A stretch of DNA of 64,000 nucleotides from Candidatus Omnitrophota bacterium (GTDB lineage: Bacteria > Omnitrophota > Omnitrophia > Omnitrophales > Aquincolibacteriaceae). Position numbers and translations under genes: made by a program. The stretch covers positions 2,021 through 66,020 of the forward strand of contig JAHFHG010000001.1 of the NCBI GenBank assembly GCA_023247035.1, in the 5' to 3' direction. How positions within the stretch are numbered: position 1 is the stretch's first letter; each line of letters opens with the position of its first letter. Under the pieces are notes generated by a model, which did not search any database, was not told the DNA's origin, and saw only the letters and a list, made by a program, of their open reading frames with translations. Shown here piece after piece: positions 4,643-33,858 of the stretch.

Positions 4643-4712
4643 TCATTCCCGCACGATGTTAAGCGGGAATCCACAAGCTTTGGATTCCCGATGAAACCAT
4701 TCGGGAATGACA
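4641..4712. repeat. Nested palindromic element (REP/MITE-like)
   Basis: Outer inverted repeat TGTCATTCCCG (4641-4651) pairs with CGGGAATGACA (4702-4712). Three internal hairpins are enclosed: ATTCCCGC/GCGGGAAT, GGAATCCA/TGGATTCC and CCCGA/TCGGG. Confidence 0.5.
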
Positions 4713-5013: not shown

Positions 5014-5055
5014 TATCCGTAAGGCTTAAGACTTTCGCCTTACGGATTTTTTTAT
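5014..5055 (+). terminator. Perfect 11-bp-stem hairpin plus T-run in the csp 5-prime leader. It could be an attenuator/terminator or the 3-prime end of a short sRNA
   Basis: ATCCGTAAGGC (5014-5024) pairs with GCCTTACGGAT (5036-5046), followed by TTTTTTTAT. It lies about 20 nt downstream of the predicted transcription start and about 85 nt upstream of the csp ATG. Confidence 0.5.
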
Positions 5056-14857: not shown

Positions 14858-16345
14858 ATGACTCATAGTCCATTCGTTGAGGAAAAAAAGAAAAACAAAA
14901 CTTATAAAAATCTCTCTTCCTTTATTTCGGAGCTTCGCCGCTGCGGCGAGCTTCACGAAATCCGCGCGGCCGTGGATCCGGTTTTAGAGGTCGCCGAAAT
15001 TTATGACCGGGTTGTCAAGAACGAAGGCCCGGCGCTTCTCTTTCATAACATCAAAGGATCGCAGATTCCCTTAGGCATCAATCTGTTCGGATCCACGAAA
15101 CGAATGGCCTTGGCATTGGGCGTTTCATCGCCTGAAGAAGTCGCCCGCCGGATTGAGGAGCTGGTCGAGGCCAAGCCGCCGCAGGGAATTATGGATAAAA
15201 TCCAATGGATCCCCAAAATGGGCGCTTTGCTGAATGCCTTGTCCCCGAAAATAGTTGCGAGCGCTCCGTGTCAGGCAGTGGTGGTTCGCGCAGGCGAAGG
15301 CCCTTTACTGGATAAGCTTCCTATCCTCCAATGCTGGCCTGAAGACGGCGGCAAGTTTATTACTTTTCCTCTCGTCATTTCCCGGGATCCCGAAACCGGA
15401 AAGCGCAATGTGGGCCTTTACCGGATGCACGTTTATGACAATCAAACTACAGGAATGCATTGGCAGATTCATAAGGACGGGGCCGAACATTTCCGCAGGC
15501 TGGGAAAGCAAAAAAGGCTCGAAGTCGCGGCGGTCATCGGCGCAGATCCGGCGACTATGTTTTCGGCCGCCTGCCCGCTTCCCTCCGGAATGGATGAGTT
15601 GATGATGGCCGGTTTCTTGCGCCAGGAGCCCGTGGAATTAGTCAAATGCAGGACGATTGATCTTGAGGTGCCGGCCGAGGCCGAGATTGTTTTAGAAGGA
15701 TACGTCCAAGAAGGGGAGCTGAGAACCGAAGGCCCGTTCGGCGATCACACCGGTTTTTATTCCCGAGCCAAGGAGTTTCCCGTTTTTCATATCACCTGTA
15801 TGACGCACCGGAAAAATCCTGTCTACGCCACGACCGTCGTGGGCCGACCGCCAATGGAAGACTGTTATATGGGAAAGGCGATCGAAAGAATTTTCCTGCC
15901 GCTTATCCGCAAACAAGTCCCTGAGATCGCGGACATTCATCTTCCTTGGGAGGGATGTTTCCATAACTGTATGATCCTTTCAATCCGTAAGAGCTACCCG
16001 GAGCACGCCAAAAAGGTGATGAGCGCGATTTGGGGCTTGGGGCAAATGATGTTTTCCAAATGTATTATTGTTTTGGATCAGGACGCCAATATTCAGGATC
16101 TAAAGGAAGTGGCTTGGCGCACTTTCAATAATGTGGATCCTAAAAGGGACATCCTGTTTACGGAAGGGCCTGTTGACGAGCTGGATCATTCCGCGAGCCA
16201 CGATTTTTTCGGCTCCAAAATGGGAATCGACGCCACGCGGAAAAGCGCCGCAGAGGGCATGAAAAAGCCGTGGCCGGCAGATATCGTTATGAGCCCGGCA
16301 ATGAAGGATCTGGTGAGCAAGAGATGGAAAGAGTACGGCTTTTAA
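14858..16345 (+). CDS. UbiD-family decarboxylase (menaquinone/ubiquinone biosynthesis, MqnL-like)
   Basis: 495 aa with hallmark UbiD segments (VISRDPETGKRNVGLYRM, GPFGDHTGFY). Confidence 0.85.
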   Translation: MTHSPFVEEKKKNKTYKNLSSFISELRRCGELHEIRAAVDPVLEVAEIYDRVVKNEGPALLFHNIKGSQIPLGINLFGSTKRMALALGVSSPEEVARRIEELVEAKPPQGIMDKIQWIPKMGALLNALSPKIVASAPCQAVVVRAGEGPLLDKLPILQCWPEDGGKFITFPLVISRDPETGKRNVGLYRMHVYDNQTTGMHWQIHKDGAEHFRRLGKQKRLEVAAVIGADPATMFSAACPLPSGMDELMMAGFLRQEPVELVKCRTIDLEVPAEAEIVLEGYVQEGELRTEGPFGDHTGFYSRAKEFPVFHITCMTHRKNPVYATTVVGRPPMEDCYMGKAIERIFLPLIRKQVPEIADIHLPWEGCFHNCMILSIRKSYPEHAKKVMSAIWGLGQMMFSKCIIVLDQDANIQDLKEVAWRTFNNVDPKRDILFTEGPVDELDHSASHDFFGSKMGIDATRKSAAEGMKKPWPADIVMSPAMKDLVSKRWKEYGF

Positions 16346-17220
16346 CCGAGAGCCTCGGGCAAAAGACCCGCCTTTTTCTGGAGATGATCAAATTTGAGCA
16401 TTCCATTTTCGCCCTTCCTTTTGCTTACCTCGGCTTATTTTTAGCTCAAAAGGGCTGGCCGCGGTGGGATTTGTTTATCCGGGTCAGCGTGGCGATGATT
16501 TCGTTCCGGACAATGGCTATGGGATTCAACCGTTTGATCGACCTTCCCATTGACGGAGAAAATCCGCGCACGAAAAACCGGGCGCTTCCCGCCGGACATT
16601 TGAAACCTGCTTTTGTTTGGATCCTGACAGGGACGTCTTGGCTGGTTTTTGAGCTTAGCGCTTTTCGATTAGGTCAATTATGCTTTATGCTTTCTCCGGT
16701 TCCCGTCATTCTTGCCTGGATTTATCCTTGGACCAAAAGATTTACCTGGTTCTCCCATCTTGTTTTGGGTATCATACTCGGCATCGCCCCTTACGGCGGC
16801 TGGCTTGCAAGCCGGCCGGAGTTTTCCTGGGTGCCCGGGCTTCTGATGCTCGGCGTCGTGACTTGGGTTGCCGGATTCGACATCATTTACGCGCTGCAGG
16901 ATGAAAGTTTCGACCGCCAAAAAGGCCTTTATTCTTTTCCCGCCTGCTTCGGGCCTAAGGCTGCGCTCCGAGTGACAACCCTTTTTCACGTTATGACTTG
17001 GCTGGCTTGGTTTTCGGCAGGGATGCTTGCCGGCCTTGGGCATATCTATCAGCTTGGGATGGCGCTCGCGGGATTGTTTCTTATCCGGGAGCACTGGCTG
17101 ATCCGATCCTTCGGCATTCAGAAAGTCGAAGAGGCGTTTTTCACGATGAATGCCGTCGTCAGCGTTTCTGTTTTCTTAGCGGTTGTCGCAGATTTTTCTT
17201 TGGGGAAATTTTTCCAATGA
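16323..17220 (+). CDS. UbiA-family polyprenyltransferase (MqnP-like)
   Basis: FALPFAYLG...NRLIDLPIDGENPRTKNRALP is a UbiA Asp-rich motif. Start taken at internal ATG 16323 (MERVRLL), which overlaps the UbiD-like stop by 23 nt. Confidence 0.8.
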
Positions 17221-17846
17221 AACCTTACATTGTGGCCTTCACGGGAGCCAGCGGTATTCTTTACGGGACCCGGCTTGTCCAGGTCCTGGCCGAGATGGGG
17301 AATACGGTTGAGCTGATCATTTCCGAATCTGCGCGGCTCGTGATCCGCGAAGAAACGGGCTGTTTGCTCAAGAGCTTCACGGATAAGGAAGATTTGGAAA
17401 AGCTGCTGGGTGATTCTATCAAAAATGTCCGCGCTTATTCTCCCCGTGATTTTACCGCCCCGGTTGCGAGCGGCTCTTATCCGACTCAGGGAATGATTGT
17501 TGCGCCGTGCAGTATGGGGACGCTGGGCGCGGTGGCTTCGGGGATCAGCCAGAATCTGATTCACCGGGCCGCCGATTGTATCCTGAAGGAAGGGCGGAAA
17601 CTGGTTCTCGTCCCGCGCGAAACTCCCCTTCACGCGATCCACTTGGAAAATATGCTGAAGCTTTCCCGCCTCGGGGCTAGGATTGTCCCTGCGATGCCTG
17701 CTTTTTATTCCGGCGCAAAGACGATTCGGGATCTCGTCGATTTCATGGTGGGCAAGATACTGGATCAGATGGAGATTGCGCACGGGCTTTATCCGCGCTG
17801 GACGGGGCCTGCGGGAAGCGCTTCGGAGACCTTGAAAAGGTTATGA
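17217..17846 (+). CDS. ubiX: Flavin prenyltransferase UbiX
   Basis: MKPYIVAFTGASGILYGTRL... flavoprotein fold. ATGA start/stop overlap with the upstream gene. Confidence 0.85.
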   Translation: MKPYIVAFTGASGILYGTRLVQVLAEMGNTVELIISESARLVIREETGCLLKSFTDKEDLEKLLGDSIKNVRAYSPRDFTAPVASGSYPTQGMIVAPCSMGTLGAVASGISQNLIHRAADCILKEGRKLVLVPRETPLHAIHLENMLKLSRLGARIVPAMPAFYSGAKTIRDLVDFMVGKILDQMEIAHGLYPRWTGPAGSASETLKRL

Positions 17847-18715
17847 AAAGCGGCCTTAAGGTCAAAACGAAGATAAGAATCGGAAAAATTTGTTACCTTA
17901 ACTGCCTGCCTTTTTATCACAATTTCAATCCTTCGGAATCCTATGACCTCGATTTTTATGAGGCCGTGCCCGCCGAGATCAATGGGGCGATGAGCCAAGG
18001 GAAAATCGATATCGCCCCTATTTCCTCCTTGGAATACCTGAATCATCAGAAAGACTATTTGATCCTGGAGCCCTTGGTGATCAGCGCCCGTGATTTTTCC
18101 GGCAGCGTGCTTTTATTCTCGCATAAAAAAGTTGAGGAGCTGGATCGGGCCGTGATCGCCCTCTCGCGCGAAAGCCTGAGCTCGGCCGCCCTTCTTAAGA
18201 TCCTTTTGAAATTCAAGTACAAATTCGAAAATGAGTTTGCGGCGGTGGATTCCAATCCCCAGGAAATGCTCGAGCGCTACGATGCGGCCCTGGTCATCGG
18301 CGACAACGCGCTTTTTTATCGTCCCAAAGAATTTGTCTATAAAAATGACTTAAGTGAGATCTGGTGGAACTGGACGGAGAAGCCCTTTTGCTTTGCCCTG
18401 TGGGCCGCACGCCGGGAATTTGCGGAAAATTTTCCCGAGGAAACAGCCGCCTTCTTGAGGAACCTTAAAAAGAATCTAAACAAAAATTTGGAAGATCTCG
18501 AAGGGTTGATTAAAGACGGCCTGAAGATGTCTTTTTTAGACGAGCGGTTTTCGAAAGTTTTCGGATATCTTTTTAATCTGAATTACGGTTTGGATGAAAC
18601 GATGCAGGAAGGCCTTGAGCTTTTTTATCGCCTCGCCGGCCGGCTTAAAGTTTCCCCGAGATTCCGGGAATTCGAATTTTTCAAATCGCCCGGAAATAGC
18701 GGAACCCTATCATGA
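17843..18715 (+). CDS. MqnA/MqnD-family menaquinone biosynthesis protein (futalosine pathway)
   Basis: The N-terminus IRIGKICYLNCLPFYH is characteristic of the MqnA/MqnD periplasmic-binding-like fold. 4-nt overlap with ubiX. Confidence 0.7.
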   Translation: MKSGLKVKTKIRIGKICYLNCLPFYHNFNPSESYDLDFYEAVPAEINGAMSQGKIDIAPISSLEYLNHQKDYLILEPLVISARDFSGSVLLFSHKKVEELDRAVIALSRESLSSAALLKILLKFKYKFENEFAAVDSNPQEMLERYDAALVIGDNALFYRPKEFVYKNDLSEIWWNWTEKPFCFALWAARREFAENFPEETAAFLRNLKKNLNKNLEDLEGLIKDGLKMSFLDERFSKVFGYLFNLNYGLDETMQEGLELFYRLAGRLKVSPRFREFEFFKSPGNSGTLS

Positions 18716-19794
18716 CGGCGGATATTTGCGGCCGAATTTTGCAGAAGCGTTTAGACGGGGGGCGTTTGAGCCTGGAAGAGGGGATTTTACTTTATTCCTG
18801 CGACCTTTTGCGTCTGGGCCAAGCCGCTCGTGCCCTGGTCCACAGGCTTCATCCCGGCGGCCAGGCCACATTTATCATCGACCGGAACGTCAGTTATACG
18901 AATGCCTGCGTGGTGGATTGCGATTTTTGCGCCTTTTACCGCTCGCCCGGGCATGAAGAGGCCTACACGCTTTCTTACGAGACGATTTTTGAAAAAATCC
19001 AGGAATTAGTCGATCTGGGCGGGACGCAAGTATTGATTCAAGGCGGCGTCAATCCCCAGCTTCCCCTGGAATATTATCTGGACCTTATCGCCGCGATCCG
19101 TCGGCGTTTTCCCCAGGTTCACATTCATTCTTTTTCCGTCGTTGAGTTTGATATGATCTCGAAAAAATTCCGCCTGAGCCTGCAAGAGGTTTTCCGGCGC
19201 TTTAAAGAAGCGGGGCTGAATTCGCTGCCCGGGGGCGGGGCGGAAATTTTAGTGGAACGGGTGCGCAGGCTGATCAGCCCGAAAAAGGCTTCTTCCGACC
19301 GCTGGATTGAAGTGATGAGAGCCGCCCACAGCGCGGGGCTCAAATCCACCGCTACAATGGTGTTCGGCCACGTGGAGACGATCGAAGAACGCATCCTGCA
19401 CCTGATCAAGATCCGCGAGCTGCAGGACGAAACCGGAGGATTCCGCGCGTTTATTCCCTGGACGCTTTCGCCGCACGGCACGCCGAGGATGAGCCGGTTC
19501 AAGCCGGCGGGCGGCGCGGATTATTTAAAGACCGTGGCGATCTCGCGCCTGATGCTGGATAATATCGAGCACCTTCAAAGCGGCTGGCTGACCGAAGGCC
19601 TTAAGCTCGGCCAGGTTGCGCTCGGCTTCGGCTGCGACGATATGGGCGGCACGCTGCTTGAAGACAAGGTCCTTGAGCCCACCGGCATTGCGGTCCACAC
19701 CCGGCGCGAAGATTTGGTCCGCCTGATCCGTGAAGCGGGCTTCGTGCCCGCCCAGCGCGACACCAACTATAGAATCCTTCATGTCTTCAACTGA
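18712..19794 (+). CDS. Radical SAM enzyme of the MqnC/MqnE family (cyclic dehypoxanthinyl futalosine or aminofutalosine synthase)
   Basis: CxxxCxFC motif (CVVDCDFCAFY). The length and C-terminal region are typical of MqnC/MqnE. Confidence 0.8.
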   Translation: MTADICGRILQKRLDGGRLSLEEGILLYSCDLLRLGQAARALVHRLHPGGQATFIIDRNVSYTNACVVDCDFCAFYRSPGHEEAYTLSYETIFEKIQELVDLGGTQVLIQGGVNPQLPLEYYLDLIAAIRRRFPQVHIHSFSVVEFDMISKKFRLSLQEVFRRFKEAGLNSLPGGGAEILVERVRRLISPKKASSDRWIEVMRAAHSAGLKSTATMVFGHVETIEERILHLIKIRELQDETGGFRAFIPWTLSPHGTPRMSRFKPAGGADYLKTVAISRLMLDNIEHLQSGWLTEGLKLGQVALGFGCDDMGGTLLEDKVLEPTGIAVHTRREDLVRLIREAGFVPAQRDTNYRILHVFN

Positions 19795-20482
19795 AGCCGC
19801 CTTGCAGGCTCCGCCGCTCCGGGTTTTTTTTGACGCGATCGCCTTCCGCTACGATTTTTTAAACAACCTTTTAAGCTTTCGCCTCGATGAATTGTGGAGA
19901 AAAAAGTCGGCCGCGATCGTCCTCCGGAATTCGGCGGCAAGTTCGATCTTGGACCTGGGGATCGGCACGGGGAAATTCATCCGCGTTTTTATGGAAGCCA
20001 AAAAATGGAAAAGGCTGGCGGGGATCGATTTTTCTTTCCCGATGCTTCACGCCGCAAAGAAAATCCTTCCTTCGGGCGTTGGATTCCTCCGCGCGGATTT
20101 TCAATCCCTGCCTTTCAGGAAGGGGAGTTTTGACCTTGTGATCTCCGCTTTTGCCTTAAGGAGCGTGCGGCAAATGCCGCTGTTCCTGCAAGGCGTCTGG
20201 GAGGTTTTGAGTGAAAAAGGCAAAGCGGCCTTTCTGTGCCTCACGCGTCCGGAAAATATTTTCTGGAGGATTTTTTATTTTCCCTACTTGAAATTTTACC
20301 TCCCCGTTGTCGGAGGCCTCGTTTCCGGTAATTTTCAGGCCTACCGGTTTCTTTCCGATTCTATTTTAAGCTTCCAGGAGCCGGAGAAGACGGCCTCAAT
20401 GATGCGCGAAACCGGATTCCAAAGCGTTAAGATCCACCGTTTTTCTTTTGGGATTGCGACTTTGATCGTGGGTGAAAAATAA
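19781..20482 (+). CDS. Class I SAM-dependent methyltransferase, UbiE/MenG-like (demethylmenaquinone methyltransferase)
   Basis: FDAIAFRYDFLNNLLS...ILDLGIGTGKF motif I. Start taken at in-frame ATG 19781, overlapping the stop of the radical SAM gene. Confidence 0.7.
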   Translation: MSSTEAALQAPPLRVFFDAIAFRYDFLNNLLSFRLDELWRKKSAAIVLRNSAASSILDLGIGTGKFIRVFMEAKKWKRLAGIDFSFPMLHAAKKILPSGVGFLRADFQSLPFRKGSFDLVISAFALRSVRQMPLFLQGVWEVLSEKGKAAFLCLTRPENIFWRIFYFPYLKFYLPVVGGLVSGNFQAYRFLSDSILSFQEPEKTASMMRETGFQSVKIHRFSFGIATLIVGEK

Positions 20483-21020: not shown

Positions 21021-21908
21021 ATGAAGCCACTTTTTAAATTCTTTCTTCTTTTTATCGGTATTGTGCTCCTGAGCGCTTTTCTTGCCCCGGTACTTTTCGA
21101 TTTTCTGCCCTTCAAATTCGAAAAGATATTCAACCGCCTCGTCATGATTTTTTCGGTTGCAGCCGCAATTTTTTTTGTACGGATCCGCCGCCAGACCCTG
21201 GTGAATTACGGGCTTTTAGGGAAGTCCGGAAGCCTTTCCCTGCTGCTGGTTTCCTTGGCCAGCGGGGCGGCCATTTTATTTCTGTGGGACGGGCTTAAAA
21301 TTGCCTTTGGCACGGCGGTTTGGGCCCCGGCCGGACTGGGCCCCGGCATGTGGGCAGTGGAAATTATAAAAGCGCTCAGCGCGGCTCTGATCATTGGTTT
21401 TATCGAAGAATTTTTTTTTCGCGGCGTTATTTTTTATTCTCTGAATCAAAAGATGGCCTTAAACCGATTTGCCAGTATCATGGTGACGAGTCTTTTTTAT
21501 TCCCTGGCCCATTTTGTGGATTACAAATCGCCTTTCATCGGCCCGGACCCTACTTTTTTTGACAGCCTGCGGCTGATCGCCGCCCCGTTGGAGTCGCTGC
21601 GTCACTTTAAAGAAATAGCGCCGGAAATTTTGGGATTATTTATTTTCGGCATGATCCTCAATGGAGTCCTTCTGACCACGGGGTCGCTTTACGGGCCCAT
21701 CGGGCTGCACGCGGGCTGTGTTTTTTTTCTTAAGCTCGACGGCCTTTTCATCAATTTCTTGAGCCCCAAAAACATTTTTTGGGGGAGCTCGAAAGGTTAT
21801 GACGGTATTCTGAGCTGGATTCTCTTCGGCTCTTTTTATTTCCTGTTTCAATGGATCTCGAAGAAACCGCATTCGACTCGCAAAGGAGCCGTGCCGCGCA
21901 GTGTCTAG
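21021..21908 (+). CDS. CPBP-family intramembrane metalloprotease (CAAX protease / Abi)
   Basis: EEFFFRGVIFYSL (motif 1) and FYSLAHF (motif 2) in a polytopic membrane protein. Start taken at ATG 21021. Confidence 0.75.
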   Translation: MKPLFKFFLLFIGIVLLSAFLAPVLFDFLPFKFEKIFNRLVMIFSVAAAIFFVRIRRQTLVNYGLLGKSGSLSLLLVSLASGAAILFLWDGLKIAFGTAVWAPAGLGPGMWAVEIIKALSAALIIGFIEEFFFRGVIFYSLNQKMALNRFASIMVTSLFYSLAHFVDYKSPFIGPDPTFFDSLRLIAAPLESLRHFKEIAPEILGLFIFGMILNGVLLTTGSLYGPIGLHAGCVFFLKLDGLFINFLSPKNIFWGSSKGYDGILSWILFGSFYFLFQWISKKPHSTRKGAVPRSV

Positions 21909-22527
21909 AAAATTTTCAAACCTAACCCTTGCGTTTTGCCTGCGCGGAATTTTGATCTTTAGCGGGGCAGTTTTAATTTTTCCGCCGGCTCTCCCGGCTG
22001 AGCAGTTTGAGATATGGGCCGAACATTCGGACGCCCTTTACCGTTTTCAGGAACACCTGCTTGAAGCCGAGGCCTCTGTGCTGCTGAAAGGCCGGGAGCC
22101 CCTGATCGGAACGTGGAAGGAAGACCGCTTTTATTTTCCGGAACTTACCCCGCTGGCCCAGGTGAAGCTTATTGAAGAACAGTCCCCGGAAGGAAAAGGA
22201 AAAGCCGTACGATTCAATCCTGTTGAAAAAGCCGTGCGGCGCCTCGTTTTTCACGACGTTCCGCCCGGATCGCGGCTTGATTTCTTTTACAAGGTGAGTG
22301 CGGGATCTAAAAAAGAACCGTCCCCTTATCTCTTGCTTAAGATTTTGGCGGGCCGTCATTTGATTAAAAGCATGAGAATTTTTCAACAGGATGAAAACTG
22401 GAAAAAAGAGGAAATCGATTTGGGCGTGGCGGCTTTTTTAAAGCGCCGCACGCTCGTCACGTTCGAGGTTTCTTCCGATCTTACCGAAAACCTCCTTTTC
22501 ACCTTCGCCGGCGAGATCAGGCAGTAA
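21901..22527 (+). CDS. Hypothetical secreted protein
   Basis: N-terminal signal-like segment (LAFCLRGILIFSGAVLIFPPALPA). No domain recognised. Confidence 0.4.
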   Translation: MSRKFSNLTLAFCLRGILIFSGAVLIFPPALPAEQFEIWAEHSDALYRFQEHLLEAEASVLLKGREPLIGTWKEDRFYFPELTPLAQVKLIEEQSPEGKGKAVRFNPVEKAVRRLVFHDVPPGSRLDFFYKVSAGSKKEPSPYLLLKILAGRHLIKSMRIFQQDENWKKEEIDLGVAAFLKRRTLVTFEVSSDLTENLLFTFAGEIRQ

Positions 22528-22623
22528 GGGCTTTCTTTCTAACAAGGCCTTCCCAATATCCTTACAAGCTGCACTTCCTCCTTGAACTCGGGTATTCCTT
22601 CGGCGGAAAAATTTATATCAATT

Positions 22624-22657
22624 TATAACAATTCATATCATCAAGAAAATTGTTATA
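22624..22657. promoter_or_regulatory. Perfect 10-bp inverted repeat TATAACAATT-N14-AATTGTTATA (operator-like) just upstream of the promoter of the Cys-rich repeat protein gene
   Basis: Seen directly in an AT-rich region. A TTGACT-17-TACACT promoter follows at 22663-22691. Confidence 0.35.
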
Positions 22658-22759
22658 TTTTTTTGACTCTTTAGGGATTGAAAGCTACACTTTAGTTTGG
22701 GGTTTAAAAAGAGTCCTTAGCAAAGAGAAGAGGGAAGGAGAAAGAGCCCGCTATTTTCA

Positions 22760-24181
22760 ATGCAGAATCCAAGCGAAGGCCAAAAGCAGCGGAACGCGAG
22801 CTATTTCATCGTCTTTTTGATAGCGGCCGGAATTCTTTTTTTATCCTTTTATGTTTTTGCTGAAGATCAGGCCTCTGAAAAAAAATCCTCTGAAAAATCC
22901 TCGAATGTAAAAGACGAAAAGCAGCTGCTCCCTGTTCCTCCGAGTCAAAGCAAGGGCCTTGTCGATCCTTATGGCCCAAGCTCCGAAGAGAACGCCGATT
23001 TTTTTTCATCGAATTCTGCTTTAGCGGGCCGGGCCATTTGCGGCAACGGAATCCGTGAACCCGCGGGAGGCGAAGAGTGCGACGACGGCAATCAGATTGA
23101 TGGCGATGGGTGCTCTGCAAGGTGTCTTTCTGAATTTTGCGGAGACGGTGTCGTCCAGCCTCCTGAAGAATGTGACGATGAAAATTCGGATATTAACGAC
23201 GGCTGTGCGGGCTGCAGAAGGTTCGACGGGCCACTGTGCGGAGATGGAATCGTCCAAACTCAATTCGGGGAGGAGTGTGACGACGGAAACAGGGTAAGCG
23301 GAGACGGGTGTTCCGAGAACTGCCGAAAAGAAACTTCAGCCGGCCAAAGATGCGGGGACGGCATTGTCCAGCCGCCGAGGGAAGAGTGCGACGACGGGAA
23401 TCTTGTCAGTAATGACGGCTGCAGTTTTCAATGCAAGCTTGAACGATGCGGGGACGGCGTTGTCCAGCCGCCGAGGGAAGAGTGCGACGACGGGAATCTC
23501 GTCAGTAACGACGGCTGTACTTTTCAATGCAAACTCGAACGGTGCGGGGACCTGATTGTCCAGACTCGCGAACAATGCGACGACGGAAATCAAGAAAATG
23601 GAGATGGGTGCTCTGCTCAATGTACTTTCGAGTGCGGAAACGGCACGAGGGATCCCGGTGAGGAGTGCGATGATGGGAATAGAAATTCCGGAGACGGGTG
23701 CTCCTCCGCTTGCGTTCGAGAATATTGCGGCGACGGAATCGTTCAGCAGGGCTTAGGGGAACAGTGCGACGATGGCAATACCCGGAACGGAGACGGCTGT
23801 TCCAGAGACTGCAGAACTGAAGAAGCCGTTTGCGGAAACGGAAGGGTGGAAGAGGGCGAGCAATGCGACGACGGCAACACCAACGACGGGGACGGGTGTT
23901 CTTCCGCCTGCACGAATGAGCCGGTCTGCGGAAATAGAATCGTCGAGCCTCCCGAGCAGTGTGACGACGGCAATCTCAATGACGGGGACGGATGCAGCAG
24001 GACCTGCCGGTGGGAAAGCTGCCGGAGCTACCGGGACTGCAACATGAAATGCGGAACTTACAGCATAGGCGGTGCCGTTCAGGAAGTGGCAAACGCCTGC
24101 GATAGCTGGATCGCGCAGCCGGACGGCTCCTGTGTGTGCGCGCCGTCGGCCTGCGTGTGGCGGGAATGTTTTACCGCGTAA
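22760..24181 (+). CDS. Secreted/anchored cysteine-rich repeat protein (Myxococcus-type CGDGxVQxxEECDDGN...DGCSxxC repeat, 10 copies)
   Basis: N-terminal hydrophobic anchor, then a Ser/Lys-rich linker, then ten 32-36-aa Cys-rich repeats. Two adjacent 96-bp units (23349-23444 and 23445-23540) are about 94% identical at the DNA level. Confidence 0.8.
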   Translation: MQNPSEGQKQRNASYFIVFLIAAGILFLSFYVFAEDQASEKKSSEKSSNVKDEKQLLPVPPSQSKGLVDPYGPSSEENADFFSSNSALAGRAICGNGIREPAGGEECDDGNQIDGDGCSARCLSEFCGDGVVQPPEECDDENSDINDGCAGCRRFDGPLCGDGIVQTQFGEECDDGNRVSGDGCSENCRKETSAGQRCGDGIVQPPREECDDGNLVSNDGCSFQCKLERCGDGVVQPPREECDDGNLVSNDGCTFQCKLERCGDLIVQTREQCDDGNQENGDGCSAQCTFECGNGTRDPGEECDDGNRNSGDGCSSACVREYCGDGIVQQGLGEQCDDGNTRNGDGCSRDCRTEEAVCGNGRVEEGEQCDDGNTNDGDGCSSACTNEPVCGNRIVEPPEQCDDGNLNDGDGCSRTCRWESCRSYRDCNMKCGTYSIGGAVQEVANACDSWIAQPDGSCVCAPSACVWRECFTA

Positions 24182-24263: not shown

Positions 24264-25667
24264 ATGAAAAACTCTTCAAGAAGCAATCCCTTATTTTTAT
24301 TCTTTTTCCTGGGCTTTATCGCGCTTCTTTTTCTCAGCTTGGGGGCGGATTTCCCCGGCCATTTCAAGGCCAGAATTTTATACGGGACTTTTTTATTGAT
24401 TTTTTTCCTGTTCCTTCGGTGGAAAATCGAATGTCGGAATTTTATTTTTATCCCTCTGGCGGCATTCCTCATTTTTCAAATCGTGCGCTTCCTCGGGGCG
24501 ATTTACAGCCTTTACTTCATCCCTACGGAGAACGCAGCGGCCGTTTTATTCGCAATTCAGGCCCGTTCTCCTCTCCGCTGGATTTTTTATTTCGCTTTTT
24601 TCCTCCTGGCCTACTCTTTCTTCAAACAGCGAGAGTCCGTTTCGGCCCTGGTGAAAGGCATGAGTTGGTTTGGATTTTTTTTGGCGTTAAACGCCATCCC
24701 TCCGCTTCTCCACAACGGAAGTTTTGGATACTTGATCGAGGGAAATGAGCTTCGGTTTTTCCATCCCGTTTTTTATTTTCATCCCTGGGCGTCTCACTAT
24801 GTCCTCGCGGTCCTCACGCATTCGAATTTTCTGGGCGATATTATGGCCTTCGGCTTCTTCCCCGCGCTGGGGCTCGCCTTTTATTCCTTCCGCTCCCTTG
24901 AAAGCAAAGACAGAGAGGATGCGGAATCTGCAGACAGGAAGGATAGAAAACGCGCCATTTTCAGTTCTTTGCTGCTTTATATGATCTTAGGTTTCGTGAT
25001 CGGCGCGGCCGTCTTCCTTCTTTTTTCACGCGGCACGATCGCTTTTTTCTTCATCTCATCTTTTTTCTTCCTTGCCGCGTGCCTTTTGAAATTTCCTTCC
25101 CGGCCGCAGCTTATTTTTACGCTTTCAGTTCTGATGATCGGAGGGGCATTTTTTTTCTGGGGAGGAAATTTGGAGAAGGCGTGGAAGGAAGTCCAAACTT
25201 TACAAAAGGAAGCGGACCCGAAAACGCGCCGGAGCTTTGCGACGAACGTTGAGGGCTGGAACCGGGCCTTGCGCATTTATAAAGCCTATCCGGTATTCGG
25301 AGCGGGCACGGGAGGTTACGGCGCCGTCGCTAAACGGTTCGCTGCGCCGGGGCTTGAAAAGAGTGACCCGCTTGCAGATTTTCAAACGATGTGCCATTAC
25401 ATTCAGGTCCTGGCCGAAGAAGGCGCCGGCGCTTTTTTTTATTATTCATTTATCCTCGTCTATCTGTGGCAGATGACGAAAGGTCTGTTTACCACGCGAA
25501 GCCGGTTTAAATTTTTAACGGGCCTTTCTCTTTTCGCTCCCGTGCTCCTTATTTTGGGCCACGCATCCATTAATGACCTGATGGAGCGTTTCTCCACGTC
25601 GATGCTGGTTTACATCACGATGGGCGCGGGCCTTGCCGTGCTCCGGAAGGATTTCGGGCATCCATAA
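24264..25667 (+). CDS. O-antigen ligase-like (Wzy_C) polytopic membrane protein
   Basis: About 11 TM segments plus the PVFGAGTGGYGAV motif of O-antigen ligase/polymerase family periplasmic loops. Confidence 0.7.
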   Translation: MKNSSRSNPLFLFFFLGFIALLFLSLGADFPGHFKARILYGTFLLIFFLFLRWKIECRNFIFIPLAAFLIFQIVRFLGAIYSLYFIPTENAAAVLFAIQARSPLRWIFYFAFFLLAYSFFKQRESVSALVKGMSWFGFFLALNAIPPLLHNGSFGYLIEGNELRFFHPVFYFHPWASHYVLAVLTHSNFLGDIMAFGFFPALGLAFYSFRSLESKDREDAESADRKDRKRAIFSSLLLYMILGFVIGAAVFLLFSRGTIAFFFISSFFFLAACLLKFPSRPQLIFTLSVLMIGGAFFFWGGNLEKAWKEVQTLQKEADPKTRRSFATNVEGWNRALRIYKAYPVFGAGTGGYGAVAKRFAAPGLEKSDPLADFQTMCHYIQVLAEEGAGAFFYYSFILVYLWQMTKGLFTTRSRFKFLTGLSLFAPVLLILGHASINDLMERFSTSMLVYITMGAGLAVLRKDFGHP

Positions 25668-25668
25668 A

Positions 25669-26451
25669 ATGCGCGACATGATTCCGGCGGCCTGGCTCTT
25701 AAGGTTGATGAGGCGATCCCGAATCCCGGCAAAAGGCTTTTTTATTCTTGAGGGAATATTTTTATATCTTCTTTCCCCGGCGCTTATTTTGTCCGCAAAA
25801 AGTGATTATGCTATCGTTGAGGACGTGATTCCGGCCCCGAATGTTTCCTCCGGCGGGACGAATGAACTTCAGTGTGCTTTGCTGGCCTTTGATGCTCAAG
25901 ACCCGGGTGAAAAATTTCCTCTTCTGCTGGCGCTGCATCCGGCGGGGAATACGGCGAAGGGATATTTGAGGCTTTGGGAAGAAGAAGCGGTCCGGCGGCG
26001 TGTGATGGTGGCCGCGCCTGTCTTGAGCCGTCCTTACGGAAATCATCCCGCGGATTTAGCGGAATTTCATCAGCTTGTCGTTCATATCGCAGAAAAATAT
26101 CCCGTGGATAGAGAGAAAATTTTTTTGATCGGCGCTTCGGCTGGCGCGCTTACGGCCGAGCGGCTTATGATCCGCTATCCTTCGGTGTGGCGGGGAGTTG
26201 TTCTTATTGCCGCACCTCCCAATCATGACCTGATCCTAGAATCGGATACGCCCATCCCGCCGCCTTTGCTTTGGATTCATGGCCAAAAGGACACGCAGTT
26301 TCGTTACGCGGAAGTCGTGCATTTATTTGAAAAATTAAAACAGAGGCCGGGGACTGAGGAACTTTGGTCCGATCCGCAGGCAGGCCATGAAGATAAAAAG
26401 GAATGGCATTCTGTGATTTGGGAATGGCTTAGGGGAAAAGGATTGTCCTGA
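25669..26451 (+). CDS. Alpha/beta hydrolase (carboxylesterase/phospholipase-like)
   Basis: GxSxG nucleophile elbow (IGASAGA) and a later HGxxD block (WIHGQKD). Start at ATG 25669, 1 nt after the ligase stop. Confidence 0.6.
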   Translation: MRDMIPAAWLLRLMRRSRIPAKGFFILEGIFLYLLSPALILSAKSDYAIVEDVIPAPNVSSGGTNELQCALLAFDAQDPGEKFPLLLALHPAGNTAKGYLRLWEEEAVRRRVMVAAPVLSRPYGNHPADLAEFHQLVVHIAEKYPVDREKIFLIGASAGALTAERLMIRYPSVWRGVVLIAAPPNHDLILESDTPIPPPLLWIHGQKDTQFRYAEVVHLFEKLKQRPGTEELWSDPQAGHEDKKEWHSVIWEWLRGKGLS

Positions 26452-31337: not shown

Positions 31338-31979
31338 ATGAAACGAGCGGAATATTTTTTGGGGGGACTCCTCTTCATGTGCCTCATGAGGAATCCGGCG
31401 TTGTTTGCCGGGCCGCAATCGGCGGACGCATCCCTTTTGGCAAGTAAAAAGGAGGTGGAAAAAGCCTACGTGCTGGAGGCCGGGGACCGGATTCGCGTTA
31501 AAATTTATCCCGACGATCCGTTTATCAGGGGCGGGGATATGCAGATCAGCTCCGACGGAAACATTACGCTTTCTCTTCTCGGCAAAGTTCATGTCGAAGG
31601 AAAGCCCGTGAATGAAGTCGAGAGATTACTCTCGGAGAAAATTGATCAGGATTACATTGTCAGCCCCGAGGTGGTGATTGAAGTTTTGCAATTTAGAGAA
31701 AAAAGTGTCGTGCTCCTGGGGGAAGTGCGAAAACCCGGGACCTATCCGTTTCCGCAAGGCGCGACCCAAATGACTTTGCTCGAAGCCGTTTCGCTGGCCG
31801 GCGGATTTTCGGATATTGCGAATATTAAAAAAGTTAAAATCATCCGAAAGCGCGCCGAAGGGACGGGGGAAGTGAAGGAAATCCTCCACGCCAATGCGGA
31901 AGCGATCATTAGCGGTGAACAAGAGGACGTGCCTCTTGAGTCCGGAGACGTCGTTCACGTTTCCGAAAGCCTGTTTTAA
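31338..31979 (+). CDS. Polysaccharide export protein, Wza/EpsE-like (short form)
   Basis: Signal peptide and Poly_export/SLBB motifs (GDRIRVKIYPDD, ISSDGNITLSLLGKVHVEGK, GDVVHV). Confidence 0.8.
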   Translation: MKRAEYFLGGLLFMCLMRNPALFAGPQSADASLLASKKEVEKAYVLEAGDRIRVKIYPDDPFIRGGDMQISSDGNITLSLLGKVHVEGKPVNEVERLLSEKIDQDYIVSPEVVIEVLQFREKSVVLLGEVRKPGTYPFPQGATQMTLLEAVSLAGGFSDIANIKKVKIIRKRAEGTGEVKEILHANAEAIISGEQEDVPLESGDVVHVSESLF

Positions 31980-32052
31980 CGGAGGTTCCATAAAAGAATC
32001 GTGGAAAGAAAACAGAACCTTGCCGATACATTCTTAAATTGAGTTTCAGCTT

Positions 32053-33858
32053 ATGAAAGACGAACGTGTCATAGCCAGCTACGGTTACGTTGAAGACGTC
32101 GAAAAACCGATCGACTACAAATATTACTTCTTCCTCTTCAAAAAGAACTTCTACATTGTTTTTACCTTTTTTATTATTTGCGTGACGCTTGCGGGAATGT
32201 ATGTCTCCAAACTCCCCACGCAGTACCAAGCGATCACTCAAGTGCTTATCGAAAGGCCGCCGGCTCCTTGGAAAGAGGACTCGCCCTCAGGCCCTGAGTC
32301 GGCTGCGGGAAGCTGGCCCTTGGATTATTACAGCACCCAAATGGAGATTATGCGCAGCCCGGCCGTTTTAAGGCAGGTGGAAGAAGAACTGCAGCTTTCC
32401 AATTACTTTGGAGTGGACAATCCGGATTTAGCGGTGGTGAAAATTCGGGAGATGGTTTTCATCCAGCGTGTCGCAGAGAGCCGTCTTTTTAATATTTTTG
32501 CCAGATTTCCGGAAGCCCAAATGGCGGCCAAAGCCGCTAATGCCGTGGCGCGGGCCTATATCCGGAAGAATTTTGAAAACGCTCTTTATTATTCCAAGGA
32601 AATCCTGGGCTGGCTTCCTCAAAAAGGCCGGGAAGAAGAGATGGTTACCATTGAGGATCCCTTCGGAGGGATGAGGCAGATTTCCCGCCACGAACTTGTC
32701 GAAAGCCTTCCCTCGATCCGGACCGACCCCACGTTACGCAGCTTGAGAGAAAAGAAAAGCGCGCAAGAAGCGGAACTGGCCGCGCTTCTCAAACAATACC
32801 GCGAGAAACACCCTCTTCTTGTCAAGGCCCGCGCGAATCTGAAATTTCTTGAAGAAAGCATCGAAGCGGAAAAAATGAGGATTATCGAGGGCCTCAAAAC
32901 CCAGGCCGAGGGCCGCCACCAGGCCGGCTACGCCAGAATTATTGAAGAAGGCAAAATTCCCAAAGCGCCGCTGCCCGTCGACCGGGGAAGAATTATTTTC
33001 CTCGTCGGACTGGGCGATCTGCTGGTGAGTTTCATCCTGATTGTCCTGATTGATTACTTTGACGACACGATCCGAACGGTCGAGGATTTTGAGCGCAGGG
33101 GGCTGATTCTTCCGTTCTTAGGCCCGATTCCTTTGGTGAAGAAGAAAAATTGGGAAATCGATAAAGAAAACATTTCAGGTTATTACGGAAAGAATCCGGA
33201 CATTGCCGAAGCCTTCCGCTACCTGCGCGTGGCGATCAATTTTTCCGGCTCGCCGGAGGCTTTGAAAATCCTTGTCTTTTCAAGCTGTCTTCCGCACGAA
33301 GGCAAGAGTTTTACGTCTCACAATATTGCCATTTCCCTGGCCCTTGATGGAAACAGGACTCTCCTGATCGACGCGGATCTCCGCCGCCCTATTTTGCACC
33401 AGACCTTCCAGGTGGAAAATTCTTCAGGGCTTTCGAACTATCTTACAAGCAAGGTGGAGTTTCAGTCTGTGATCAGGGAATCCTTCGTGGATAATTTGTT
33501 TCTTGTCGTCAGCGGGCCGATGTCTCCGAATCCCGGGGAAATTTTAGGCTCGGACCGGATGAAACAGTTCCTCGAAGAGGCCAGGGACAGCTTTGACCGT
33601 ATCATTATTGATTGCCCGCCCCTGACCGGGATCGGCGACGGCTACGTCGTCGGCAGTTTGATCGGCCAGCTGATTCTTGTTGTGGCTGCGGGCAAAACGC
33701 CTGCCGACCTTATTAAGCATACCCAAAAACAGCTCGAGAAAGCTCACGTGAAAGTGATGGGTTCGGTCCTGAATATGGTGGACCTTGAAAAAGAACGCTA
33801 CAGCGGCTACTCCAAACATTATTACAGTACCTACACCCGCTATTATAAGCAGGATTGA
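32053..33858 (+). CDS. Wzc/GumC-like polysaccharide co-polymerase fused to a BY-kinase P-loop ATPase domain
   Basis: Two TM segments flank a periplasmic coiled coil. The C-terminal CapB-like domain has a Walker A variant (SCLPHEGKSFTSHNIAISLA), LIDADLRRP, and a Walker B (IIIDCPP). Confidence 0.8.
   Translation: MKDERVIASYGYVEDVEKPIDYKYYFFLFKKNFYIVFTFFIICVTLAGMYVSKLPTQYQAITQVLIERPPAPWKEDSPSGPESAAGSWPLDYYSTQMEIMRSPAVLRQVEEELQLSNYFGVDNPDLAVVKIREMVFIQRVAESRLFNIFARFPEAQMAAKAANAVARAYIRKNFENALYYSKEILGWLPQKGREEEMVTIEDPFGGMRQISRHELVESLPSIRTDPTLRSLREKKSAQEAELAALLKQYREKHPLLVKARANLKFLEESIEAEKMRIIEGLKTQAEGRHQAGYARIIEEGKIPKAPLPVDRGRIIFLVGLGDLLVSFILIVLIDYFDDTIRTVEDFERRGLILPFLGPIPLVKKKNWEIDKENISGYYGKNPDIAEAFRYLRVAINFSGSPEALKILVFSSCLPHEGKSFTSHNIAISLALDGNRTLLIDADLRRPILHQTFQVENSSGLSNYLTSKVEFQSVIRESFVDNLFLVVSGPMSPNPGEILGSDRMKQFLEEARDSFDRIIIDCPPLTGIGDGYVVGSLIGQLILVVAAGKTPADLIKHTQKQLEKAHVKVMGSVLNMVDLEKERYSGYSKHYYSTYTRYYKQD

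What the first reader, a model, noticed from the sequence alone, without database searches (positions are those of the whole stretch)
22760..24181. Cysteine-rich tandem-repeat surface protein with near-identical 96-bp DNA repeat units
Ten CGDGxVQxxEECDDGNxxxxDGCSxxC repeats follow an N-terminal anchor and a Ser/Lys-rich linker. Two neighbouring 96-bp units (23349-23444 and 23445-23540) are about 94% identical in DNA, far more than the other copies. This indicates a recent duplication and the potential for copy-number variation by slipped-strand or recombinational expansion. The gene has its own strong promoter and a perfect 10-bp operator-like palindrome (22624-22657). It is followed by an O-antigen-ligase-like gene that could glycosylate or otherwise handle it.
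Basis: partly seen in the sequence, partly recalled or inferred. Interest (0 to 1): 0.55.

Follow-up and report, generated by a model that had tools for sequence, protein, structure and literature searches.

The report
Exported calcium-type cysteine-rich repeat protein
This gene encodes an exported, very acidic protein built from ten copies of a widespread but functionally uncharacterised cysteine-rich repeat (DUF4215), most likely a stiff calcium- and disulfide-braced rod in the cell envelope; it is an ordinary member of a very large family, and nothing suggests its repeat number is currently changing.

Summary
ORF 22760-24181 (+) encodes 473 aa with ten DUF4215/TIGR02232 repeats (Pfam E=1.4e-64, NCBIfam E=9e-112). 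It has an N-terminal hydrophobic helix, a disordered Ser/Lys/Glu/Pro linker and a 53-aa, 8-Cys C-terminal cap found only in this lineage.

Units 4 and 5 are 88/96 nt identical; all other unit pairs are 49-66%. This is not a fresh or unstable duplication:
- dS is about 0.40 and dN/dS about 0.07.
- A second assembly (99.955% identical over 20 kb) has no change in the gene.
- The only ortholog (54-59% aa) also has exactly ten units.

The 10-bp palindrome is real but not conserved in the ortholog. A TTGACT-17-TACACT promoter-like site inside an 80%-conserved 111-nt block is conserved.

The Wzy_C neighbour is conserved and probably co-transcribed, but it has no PglL-type accessory domain.

One repeat unit superposes on the solved PAPP-A M3 mini-domain (0.7 Å over 34 residues, 68% identity), which binds two Ca2+. 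Units also carry the disintegrin Ca-site motif.

Best reading: a Ca2+/disulfide-rigid envelope or matrix rod in an uncultured Omnitrophota-like diderm. It is a new member of a known kind, of low interest.

The parts
22607..22717 (+). Conserved non-coding block upstream of the gene (contains the palindrome, the promoter-like hexamers and the start of the leader)
   Evidence: 89/111 (80%) identical to the orthologous locus L002, against about 35-50% in the flanking intergenic DNA. No Rfam match and no conserved RNA structure.
22624..22657 (.). Perfect 10-bp inverted repeat TATAACAATT-N14-AATTGTTATA, ending 5 nt upstream of the -35-like hexamer
   Evidence: Unique in the window. Local chance about 0.014. 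In the ortholog only the outer TATAA/TTATA halves are kept.
22663..22691 (+). Sigma-70-like promoter candidate TTGACT-17 nt-TACACT, preceded by a T-run
   Evidence: 9/12 consensus match. Both hexamers and the spacing are identical in L002. The pattern occurs only once in the window.
22760..24181 (+). CDS of the 473-aa DUF4215/TIGR02232 cysteine-rich acidic repeat protein (pI 4.08; 92 Asp+Glu; 48 Cys)
22802..22861 (+). N-terminal hydrophobic segment (aa 15-34, YFIVFLIAAGILFLSFYVFA), either a signal-anchor or a Sec signal peptide with a possible VFA|E cleavage site
   Evidence: It is the only hydrophobic segment (Kyte-Doolittle 2.64). AF2 predicts a helix at 9-38. AAGILFLSFYVFAE is invariant in the ortholog.
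22862..23038 (+). Ser/Lys/Glu/Pro-rich linker (aa 35-93), predicted disordered, with conserved motifs SEKSSN and DEKQLLPVPP
   Evidence: pLDDT below 50 for residues 41-88. Composition; conservation.
23039..24019 (+). Ten tandem Cys-rich acidic units (aa 94-420; 30-38 aa each; 4 Cys each)
   Evidence: Unit table. Ten HMM stretches. pLDDT about 85-94. One unit superposes on PAPP-A M3 at 0.7 Å over 34 residues with 68% identity.
23351..23446 (+). Unit 4 (aa 198-229)
   Evidence: 88/96 nt identical to unit 5.
23447..23542 (+). Unit 5 (aa 230-261), the homogenised partner of unit 4
   Evidence: 6 synonymous and 2 conservative differences; longest identical tract 40 nt; dS 0.40.
24020..24178 (+). 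Lineage-specific 53-aa C-terminal cap with 8 Cys, ending in CFTA
   Evidence: A profile search of 1.84 billion representatives found only the ortholog cluster (P0001, 5.8e-25) and two junk repeat hits. No Pfam match. Low AF2 confidence.
24264..25667 (+). Wzy_C-family polytopic membrane protein, probably co-transcribed
   Evidence: PF04932, 35.9 bits. The 82-nt gap has no significant hairpin (z=-0.91). An ortholog sits in the same position in L002 (64% aa).
25678..26451 (+). Alpha/beta-hydrolase (PHA-depolymerase-like esterase), last gene of the putative three-gene unit; a convergent GGDEF gene follows
21021..21908 (+). CPBP (Rce1-like) intramembrane protease two genes upstream. Listed as context; no link to the repeat protein is shown.
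   Evidence: PF02517, 56.2 bits. Below all myxosortase-family cut-offs (MrtS 33.9 against 130). Conserved in L002 (72%).
21901..22527 (+). 208-aa orphan protein with an N-terminal hydrophobic segment, overlapping the CPBP gene by 8 nt. Listed as context.
   Evidence: No Pfam or NCBIfam hit. 67% identical in L002. No relative in the GTDB species genomes.

Best explanation
The gene encodes an exported structural protein of the DUF4215/TIGR02232 'cysteine-rich acidic repeat' family, in an uncultured diderm bacterium most likely of the phylum Omnitrophota.

After Sec export, the N-terminal hydrophobic helix either anchors the protein in the inner membrane or is removed at VFA|E. A roughly 55-residue disordered linker follows.

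Next come ten units of about 32 residues. Each is pinned by two disulfides and, by homology with the solved PAPP-A M3 unit and the disintegrin Ca-site II motif, by structural Ca2+ held on the conserved Asp/Glu/Asn/Gln residues. Together they form a stiff, highly acidic rod.

The rod ends in a small 8-Cys cap found only in this lineage.

The gene is transcribed from its own conserved promoter-like element, probably together with a Wzy_C-type membrane protein and a secreted esterase, and it lies next to polysaccharide-export genes. Its role is therefore most likely in envelope or exopolysaccharide-matrix architecture or adhesion.

The high similarity of units 4 and 5 is the trace of an old intragenic conversion or duplication. 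Such traces are a routine feature of this family and do not indicate an active variation mechanism.

Shown: family membership, architecture, repeat statistics, synteny, and the fold match to PAPP-A M3. Inferred: Ca2+ binding, rod rigidity, localisation, the operon, and the biological role.
For: - Family: ten HMM matches far above the curated cut-offs and more than 7,700 homologs.
- Export: a single N-terminal hydrophobic segment, 48 Cys, pI 4.08. LpxD in the window indicates a diderm.
- Model: repeats at pLDDT about 90, linker disordered, N-terminal helix.
- Solved counterpart: PAPP-A 8a7d_C, 34 residues, 68% identity, rmsd 0.7 Å, probability 1.0; PAPP-A2 8sl1, 39 residues, 54% identity, 1.2 Å. 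The sequence match is YCGDGIIQKDQGEQCDDMNKINGDGCSLFC.
- That region is PAPP-A domain M3 (S944-G995), for which two bound Ca2+ are reported (PMC9579167).
- Disintegrin Ca-site II consensus is XCGN(X)3EXGEXCD (PMC4885070). Unit 9 (VCGNGRVEEGEQCD) matches it exactly; units 1, 7 and 10 match nearly.
- Homologs attach the same repeats to varied enzyme or lectin heads and to MYXO-CTERM-like tails, as a spacer module would.
- Stability: identical in a second assembly; ten units in the ortholog; dN/dS 0.07.
- 7% of the 121 family members examined also have an adjacent pair at 90% identity or more.
- Context.
- Taxonomy: the closest named GuaA hits are nearly all Omnitrophica/Omnitrophota, one Verrucomicrobiae (72-78% identity).
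Against: - No member of this family has an experimentally established function, so 'stalk/rod' rests on analogy.
- Ca2+ binding is transferred from a single eukaryotic unit and from a motif resemblance.
- Most units have Asp/Gln where the disintegrin site has Asn/Glu.
- The protein has no obvious 'head' for a stalk to present other than a 53-aa cap modelled with low confidence.
- No outer-membrane targeting signal was found, so the final location (inner membrane, periplasm, surface or secreted) is open.
- Co-transcription with Wzy_C is inferred only from the absence of a terminator.
Confidence: 0.6

Rival explanations
1. The gene is a contingency or variable surface-protein locus in which the near-identical 96-bp units drive copy-number change by slippage or unequal recombination.
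For: - Units 4 and 5 are 92% identical and share a 40-nt perfectly identical tract, long enough for occasional homologous recombination.
- TRF score 353.
- Near-identical adjacent units recur in the family, and unit number ranges from 6 to 16 among homologs.
Against: - Only two units are alike.
- dS between them is about 0.40, with strong purifying selection.
- There is no difference in a second assembly that carries 9 SNPs elsewhere in 20 kb.
- The ortholog at 54-59% identity keeps ten units, with units 1, 7 and 10 positionally orthologous.
- The unit is a multiple of 3, so expression cannot be switched on or off.
Confidence: 0.08
2. The protein is the dedicated substrate of the downstream Wzy_C-type enzyme, which acts as a PglL/PilO-like O-oligosaccharyltransferase on the Ser-rich linker.
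For: - Gene order DUF4215 then Wzy_C, with an 82-nt gap and no terminator.
- The same order occurs in the ortholog.
- The linker is Ser-rich and disordered, with conserved SEKSSN and DEKQLLPVPP motifs.
Against: - Wzy_C is shared by O-antigen ligases and polymerases.
- The match is barely above the cut-off, and there is no PglL_A or Wzy_C_2 hit even at E up to 10.
- No NCBIfam or PDB sequence match.
- Polysaccharide-export genes lie close by, which fits a polymerase or ligase role.
- None of 21 unrelated DUF4215 loci had a detectable Wzy_C relative nearby (a low-sensitivity test).
- Synteny in one relative is weak evidence.
Confidence: 0.12
3. The repeats themselves are the working surface. On this reading the protein is a secreted adhesive or ligand-mimicking (disintegrin-like) protein, used for attachment to surfaces or to host or prey cells by a possibly host-dependent Omnitrophota bacterium.
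For: - Motif and weak fold resemblance to ADAM/SVMP disintegrin domains.
- A diatom adhesive-trail protein carries twelve of these repeats (bioRxiv 10.1101/2023.03.06.531300).
- Many of the named bacterial homologs are from Myxococcota.
Against: - The disintegrin Pfam model does not match.
- Foldseek probabilities for ADAM/SVMP hits are only 0.08-0.23.
- There is no integrin-binding loop equivalent.
- The resemblance covers the Ca-binding half-site, not a binding surface.
- No secretion-system gene lies next to the gene.
Confidence: 0.15
4. The C-terminal CFTA is a CAAX-like tag, processed by the CPBP (Rce1-like) protease encoded two genes upstream. This would be a new variant of the Cys-dependent myxosortase-type sorting systems.
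For: - CFTA is invariant in both orthologs.
- A CPBP gene is conserved two genes upstream.
- CPBP proteases process Cys-containing C-terminal signals (Haft 2023).
Against: - The tripartite signal is absent: there is no C-terminal transmembrane helix or Arg cluster.
- The CPBP protein scores far below every Mrt-family cut-off.
- It belongs to the upstream transcription unit together with menaquinone genes.
- The final Cys is one of 8 in a probably disulfide-bonded cap.
- With only two genomes, the synteny is uninformative.
Confidence: 0.04

Closest known systems
DUF4215 (PF13948) / TIGR02232 'cysteine-rich acidic repeat' (formerly 'Myxococcus cysteine-rich repeat', IPR011936) proteins
   Same: Ten tandem units match both HMMs far above cut-off. 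Each has the same 4-Cys spacing and the CG[DN]G...E[EQ]CDDGN...[DN]GC...C signature. The protein is exported and acidic.
   Different: It is small (473 aa). It has no enzyme or lectin head and no MYXO-CTERM or other C-terminal sorting tail, both of which are common in homologs. Instead it has an N-terminal hydrophobic segment and an orphan 8-Cys cap. The host is Omnitrophota-like rather than Myxococcota.
Human PAPP-A / PAPP-A2 domain M3 (PDB 8a7d, 7ufg, 7y5n, 8hgg, 8sl1)
   Same: It is one copy of the same unit: 54-68% identity and 0.7-1.2 Å rmsd over 34-39 residues. It is a small coil domain with disulfides and two Ca2+ (PMC9579167).
   Different: It is a single copy buried as a connector inside a eukaryotic metalloproteinase, not a ten-unit array. 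No function is assigned to it there either.
Disintegrin Ds subdomain Ca2+-binding site II of ADAMs and P-III snake-venom metalloproteinases
   Same: The consensus XCGN(X)3EXGEXCD (PMC4885070) is present exactly in unit 9 and nearly in units 1, 7 and 10. There are weak sequence hits (ADAM17, E=0.0055) and weak fold hits.
   Different: The Pfam disintegrin model does not match. The rest of the Cys framework differs, and there is no disintegrin loop. This is resemblance of a Ca-binding half-site only.
Myxococcus xanthus TraA stalk (Cys-rich repeats TIGR04201 plus MYXO-CTERM)
   Same: It is a functional analogue: tandem Cys-rich repeats proposed to form a rigid stalk on an exported protein (PMC3325183).
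   Different: It is a different repeat family: TIGR04201 gave no hit here. This protein has no PA14 head and no MYXO-CTERM. My initial recollection that TraA carries TIGR02232 was wrong.
Diatom adhesive-trail protein Ca5255 (twelve DUF4215 repeats)
   Same: It has the same repeat in a similar copy number in a secreted protein.
   Different: It is eukaryotic and its function is likewise only inferred. No homology outside the repeats was tested.

Membership tests
DUF4215 / TIGR02232 cysteine-rich acidic repeat | HMM match above the curated cut-off | tested here: met
   PF13948: 214.6 bits against 27, ten stretches. TIGR02232: 364.6 bits against 20.8, ten stretches.
DUF4215 / TIGR02232 cysteine-rich acidic repeat | Four conserved Cys per unit of about 30-38 aa, with the E-x-C-D-D-G-N and D-G-C motifs, arranged in tandem | tested here: met
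   All ten units have 4 Cys. Nine of the ten have CDDGN...[DN]GC; unit 2 is degenerate (CDDEN...DGC).
DUF4215 / TIGR02232 cysteine-rich acidic repeat | Fold of the unit as in the only solved example (PAPP-A M3) | tested here: met
   Foldseek 8a7d_C: rmsd 0.7 Å over 34 residues, 68% identity, probability 1.0. The query is an AF2 model, not an experimental structure.
DUF4215 / TIGR02232 cysteine-rich acidic repeat | Ca2+ binding and disulfide bonding of the unit | not testable with these tools
   Inferred from PAPP-A M3 (two Ca2+; PMC9579167) and from the disintegrin site II motif (PMC4885070).
TraA-type stalk / MYXO-CTERM surface proteins | TIGR04201 repeats | tested here: not met
   The NCBIfam scan at E up to 0.01 returned only TIGR02232.
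TraA-type stalk / MYXO-CTERM surface proteins | Tripartite C-terminal signal (Cys motif, transmembrane helix, Arg cluster) | tested here: not met
   The only hydrophobic segment is N-terminal. The C-terminus ...CVWRECFTA has no helix or Arg cluster.
Disintegrin domain (PF00200) | Pfam model match and full disintegrin Cys framework | tested here: not met
   No PF00200 hit at E up to 0.01. Only the Ca-site II motif is shared.
Slipped-strand / contingency repeat locus | An array of several (near-)identical units | tested here: not met
   There is only one pair, at 92%; all other pairs are 49-66%.
Slipped-strand / contingency repeat locus | Length polymorphism between strains or relatives | tested here: not met
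   No indels or SNPs in the gene against a second assembly. Ten units in the ortholog. The sample is only n=2, and no reads were available.
PglL/PilO-type protein O-oligosaccharyltransferase (for the neighbour gene 24264-25667) | Wzy_C catalytic domain | tested here: met
   PF04932, 35.9 bits against 31.7. This domain is shared with ligases and polymerases, so it is not diagnostic.
PglL/PilO-type protein O-oligosaccharyltransferase (for the neighbour gene 24264-25667) | PglL_A or Wzy_C_2 accessory domain. That this domain is typical of O-OTases is from my own knowledge. | tested here: not met
   No such hit even at E up to 10.
Myxosortase-type (CPBP) Cys-dependent C-terminal sorting | Cognate CPBP protease of an Mrt family | tested here: not met
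   MrtS 33.9 bits against 130; Mrt_core 20 against 100; pepcterm_CAAX 19.6 against 81.

The most novel reading that the evidence does not exclude
The conserved block of five genes (CPBP protease, 208-aa orphan, DUF4215 protein with an invariant transmembrane segment and CFTA end, Wzy_C protein, secreted esterase) could be a dedicated maturation cassette specific to this lineage. In that case the repeat protein would be covalently modified, either glycosylated on its linker by the Wzy_C enzyme or processed at its invariant N-terminal FYVFA|E or C-terminal CFTA by the CPBP protease, and then attached to the exopolysaccharide or envelope. That would be a new kind of protein-polysaccharide anchoring.
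Probability: 0.06. Interest if true: 0.55.

Novelty: new member of a known kind. Interest (0 to 1): 0.2.

Why it matters
The finding matters little in itself. It adds one more DUF4215 protein to a family with thousands of members and no known function, here in an uncultured Omnitrophota-like genome.

Two modest points have some value:
- This small, 'head-less' member (anchor, linker, ten units, tiny cap) would be a convenient minimal construct for testing what the repeat does, namely whether it forms a Ca2+-dependent rigid rod.
- The bacterial repeat has a solved counterpart in the human PAPP-A M3 domain, which binds two Ca2+. The structure paper states that no sequence similarity had been reported for its M domains. 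This gives a concrete structural template for the whole bacterial family.

Tried and rejected
1. Metagenome scan for orthologs using an N-terminal alignment.
2. Two scans of GTDB species genomes, one with the N-terminus and one with the 208-aa neighbour. No relatives were found, so the lineage is not represented there.
3. Protein search with a chimeric alignment of N-terminus plus C-terminus. It returned nothing, not even the proteins it was built from, so I treat it as a tool limitation and not as evidence.
4. Exhaustive profile search with the C-terminal cap. It found only the ortholog plus two spurious low-complexity translations.
5. Leader RNA or riboswitch upstream of the gene. Rfam gave nothing at gathering threshold and only a spurious hit at E=0.34. 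There is no conserved structure.
6. Terminator between the repeat gene and the Wzy_C gene. The fold is not better than shuffled sequences (z=-0.91) and the sequence is not conserved.
8. My recollection that TraA carries this repeat was checked and rejected. TraA has TIGR04201. The 2026 'CysRRep' preprint also concerns a different, 6-Cys repeat.
9. General association of DUF4215 genes with Wzy_C, CPBP or esterase genes. tblastn against 21 unrelated loci found none (low sensitivity).
10. A second DUF4215 gene in the window: none found.
Full report
**1. What is in the sequence**

The ORF at 22760-24181 (+) is real and encodes 473 aa. Its parts are as follows.
- A charged N-terminus is followed by the protein's only strongly hydrophobic segment (aa 15-34; Kyte-Doolittle 2.64).
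- A 59-residue Ser/Lys/Glu/Pro-rich stretch follows (aa 35-93).
- Ten tandem units of 30-38 aa come next (aa 94-420), each with four Cys.
- A 53-aa tail with eight more Cys ends in CFTA.

The protein is very acidic (pI 4.08; 92 Asp+Glu against 38 Lys+Arg). Pfam DUF4215 (PF13948, E=1.4e-64) and NCBIfam TIGR02232 'cysteine-rich acidic repeat' (E=9.1e-112) each match ten stretches. The repeat structure is therefore far beyond chance. Unit 2 is degenerate. There is no second gene of this kind in the window.

**2. The near-identical pair**

- Tandem Repeats Finder reports a 96-nt period, 2.2 copies, at 23349-23563.
- In codon register, unit 4 (23351-23446) and unit 5 (23447-23542) share 88/96 nt.
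- All 44 other unit pairs are 49-66% identical in DNA.
- The eight differences are six synonymous third-position changes plus I/V and S/T.
- This gives dS about 0.40, dN about 0.03 and dN/dS about 0.07. The longest perfectly identical tract is 40 nt.

The event is thus younger than the other units but not recent, and both copies have since been under purifying selection.

**3. Is the repeat number variable?**

- An independent assembly (ENA ERZ27276474 contig, L001) aligns to window 14144-34181 with 9 mismatches and no gaps. None of the mismatches lies between 19648 and 25006, so the gene and its upstream region are identical.
- Among more than 7,700 homologs, only one protein covers the full length. 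This is P0001 (486 aa, 54-59% identity), and it sits in the same gene order.
- P0001 also has exactly ten units, a degenerate unit 2, the same N-terminal segment and the same cap ending in CFTA.
- Units 1, 7 and 10 are clear positional orthologs (69-73% aa).
- Window units 4 and 5 are only 59% and 66% identical in DNA to the ortholog's units 4 and 5. In the ortholog, units 4/5 are again the most similar pair (72% nt).
- The simplest reading is homogenisation (gene conversion) between two pre-existing neighbouring units after the lineages split, with the count preserved. Duplication plus a compensating loss cannot be excluded.
- Among 121 family members, 7% have an adjacent pair at 90% aa identity or more and 20% at 80% or more. 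Such pairs are routine in this family.
- Because the unit is 32 codons, a change in copy number could alter length but not expression.

I conclude that the contingency-locus idea is not supported. The caveats are n=2 genomes and no read-level data.

**4. Upstream region**

- The 10-bp perfect inverted repeat at 22624-22657 exists and is unique.
- Perfect 10-bp inverted repeats with a spacer of up to 20 nt are about as frequent in the window as in Markov simulations (7 hits at 4 places against 3.0±2.2). The local chance in this 37% GC spacer is about 0.014.
- In the orthologous locus the arms read TATAACTCCT and AACTTTTATA, so only the outer 5 bp stay complementary.
- By contrast, a 111-nt block (22607-22717) is 80% identical between the loci, while the surrounding intergenic DNA is 35-50% identical.
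- Within that block, TTGACT-17-TACACT (22663-22691) and its upstream T-run are identical.
- The gene therefore very probably has its own promoter. 'Strong' cannot be judged from a 9/12 match.
- The palindrome lies upstream of the -35 hexamer. That is a position typical of activator sites or UP-like AT-rich DNA rather than of an operator.
- No Rfam family and no conserved leader structure were found.

**5. Gene context and host**

- Upstream are futalosine-type menaquinone genes, a RidA-like gene, a CPBP (Rce1-like) intramembrane protease and a 208-aa orphan whose start overlaps the CPBP stop.
- Downstream, after 82 nt without a credible terminator, come a Wzy_C-family membrane protein and, 10 nt further on, a PHA-depolymerase-like esterase.
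- A convergent HAMP-GGDEF gene then closes the unit.
- Beyond it lie a TPR protein, an orphan 490-aa protein, and Wza-like and Wzc-like polysaccharide-export proteins. All are below the PEP-CTERM-system cut-offs.
- The order is conserved in L002, from the menaquinone genes through the repeat gene to the start of the Wzy_C gene, where that contig ends.
- LpxD shows that the host is diderm.
- GuaA's best named relatives are almost all Candidatus Omnitrophica/Omnitrophota, at 72-78% identity.
- Neither the repeat protein's N-terminus nor the 208-aa neighbour has a relative in 185,579 GTDB species genomes.

**6. Structure and likely mechanism**

- An AlphaFold2 model built with 120 homologs has mean pLDDT 77. 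The repeats reach about 85-94, the linker is below 50 (residues 41-88), residues 9-38 form a helix, and the cap is poorly defined.
- Foldseek against the PDB found pappalysins first. For PAPP-A 8a7d_C it aligned 34 residues at 68% identity, rmsd 0.7 Å and probability 1.0. For PAPP-A2 8sl1 it aligned 39 residues at 54% identity and 1.2 Å.
- phmmer with two units confirms the sequence match to PAPP-A 'YCGDGIIQKDQGEQCDDMNKINGDGCSLFCRQE' (E=0.003).
- In prepro numbering this is domain M3 (S944-G995). The authors describe it as a small domain of coils and strands with intradomain disulfides and evidence for two bound Ca2+. They state that no sequence similarity had been reported for M1-M6 (PMC9579167).
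- The next hits, at low probability, are ADAM and snake-venom disintegrin domains.
- The Ca2+-binding site II of those domains has the consensus XCGN(X)3EXGEXCD (PMC4885070).
- Unit 9 (VCGNGRVEEGEQCD) fits that consensus exactly and units 1, 7 and 10 fit it nearly. The other units have Asp/Gln at the ligand positions.
- From this I infer that each unit is a small knot with two disulfides and one or two structural Ca2+. I also infer that ten of them form a stiff acidic rod. This is inference by homology and has not been shown.
- In homologs the same repeats connect very different heads (thioester, FGE-sulfatase, trypsin, PPC and lectin-like domains) to MYXO-CTERM-like tails. That pattern fits a spacer or stalk module.
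- The analogous proposal for TraA concerns a different repeat family, TIGR04201 (PMC3325183).
- Published mentions of this repeat all say its function is unknown. They cover a diatom adhesive-trail protein with twelve copies, Cys-rich exported proteins of Peribacteria that resemble pappalysin-1, and human COLQ.

**7. The cap and the neighbours**

- A profile of the 53-aa cap, searched against 1.84 billion representative proteins, found only the ortholog cluster and two spurious repeat translations. The cap is an orphan.
- Its invariant CFTA end and the nearby CPBP protease suggested a CAAX-like or myxosortase-like system.
- Against that idea, the tripartite signal is absent and the protease is far below every Mrt-family cut-off. 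The protease also belongs to the upstream transcription unit, and synteny in two genomes is uninformative. I rate it at about 4%.
- The Wzy_C neighbour has no PglL_A or Wzy_C_2 domain and no NCBIfam or PDB sequence match. With export genes nearby, a polymerase or ligase role is at least as likely as protein glycosylation.
- None of 21 unrelated DUF4215 loci showed a detectable Wzy_C, CPBP or esterase relative nearby (a low-sensitivity test).

**8. Verdict**

The object is a new member of a known, very large family that has no established function. Its most likely role is a Ca2+/disulfide-stiffened envelope or matrix rod, co-expressed with a Wzy_C-type protein and an esterase. Nothing found here is surprising to a specialist. 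The interest score is 0.2.

Noticed in passing
window 22799-22861 (aa 14-34) and 22892-22942: The transmembrane/signal segment AAGILFLSFYVFAE is 14/14 invariant between orthologs that are only 54-59% identical overall. Two linker motifs, SEKSSN and DEKQLLPVPP, are also invariant. This is unusually strong conservation for a signal peptide and a disordered linker, and hints at a specific membrane partner or a processing or modification site.
   Followed up: partly
PDB 8a7d/7ufg/8hgg (PAPP-A residues about 944-995) against window units, e.g. 23831-23926: The PAPP-A M3 mini-domain is a single DUF4215/TIGR02232 unit (68% identity, 0.7 Å). The structure paper states that no sequence similarity had been reported for domains M1-M6, yet this domain provides the only solved template for the bacterial repeat, with two Ca2+.
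   Followed up: partly
window 21901-22527: A 208-aa orphan protein with an N-terminal hydrophobic segment is translationally coupled to the CPBP protease (8-nt overlap). It is 67% conserved in the one related locus, has no Pfam or NCBIfam match, and has no relative in the GTDB species genomes.
   Followed up: partly
window 42042-42065: A 24-nt perfect palindrome, GAAACCCTTTGATCAAAGGGTTTC, lies inside the ORF 41515-42321. Its purpose is unknown.
   Followed up: no
window 14858-20482: A contiguous futalosine-type menaquinone gene set (UbiD-like, UbiA-like, flavoprotein, VitK2_biosynth, radical-SAM CofH_C-type, UbiE-like methyltransferase) lies directly upstream. It is conserved at about 79-80% DNA identity in L002.
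   Followed up: no
window 31338-33858 and 51033-54274: There are two separate Wza-like/Wzc-like polysaccharide-export gene pairs in 64 kb. The first is preceded by a PrsT-like TPR protein and a 490-aa orphan. All score below the PEP-CTERM-system cut-offs, and no exosortase was seen.
   Followed up: no
window 5015-5047 and 4664-4690: Both are perfect 10-11-bp hairpins. The first is followed by a T-run (ATCCGTAAGGC...GCCTTACGGATTTTTTT) and looks like a classical intrinsic terminator.
   Followed up: no
whole window: The closest named GuaA relatives are nearly all Candidatus Omnitrophota (72-78% identity, one Verrucomicrobiae). The lineage has no close representative among the GTDB species genomes for the two lineage-specific proteins tested. 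No tRNA or other Rfam RNA reaches gathering score anywhere in the 64 kb.
   Followed up: partly
tool behaviour: A profile search built from the N- and C-terminal parts of the window protein and P0001 returned no hit at all, not even those two proteins. Negative results from that word-indexed search should not be over-read.
   Followed up: no
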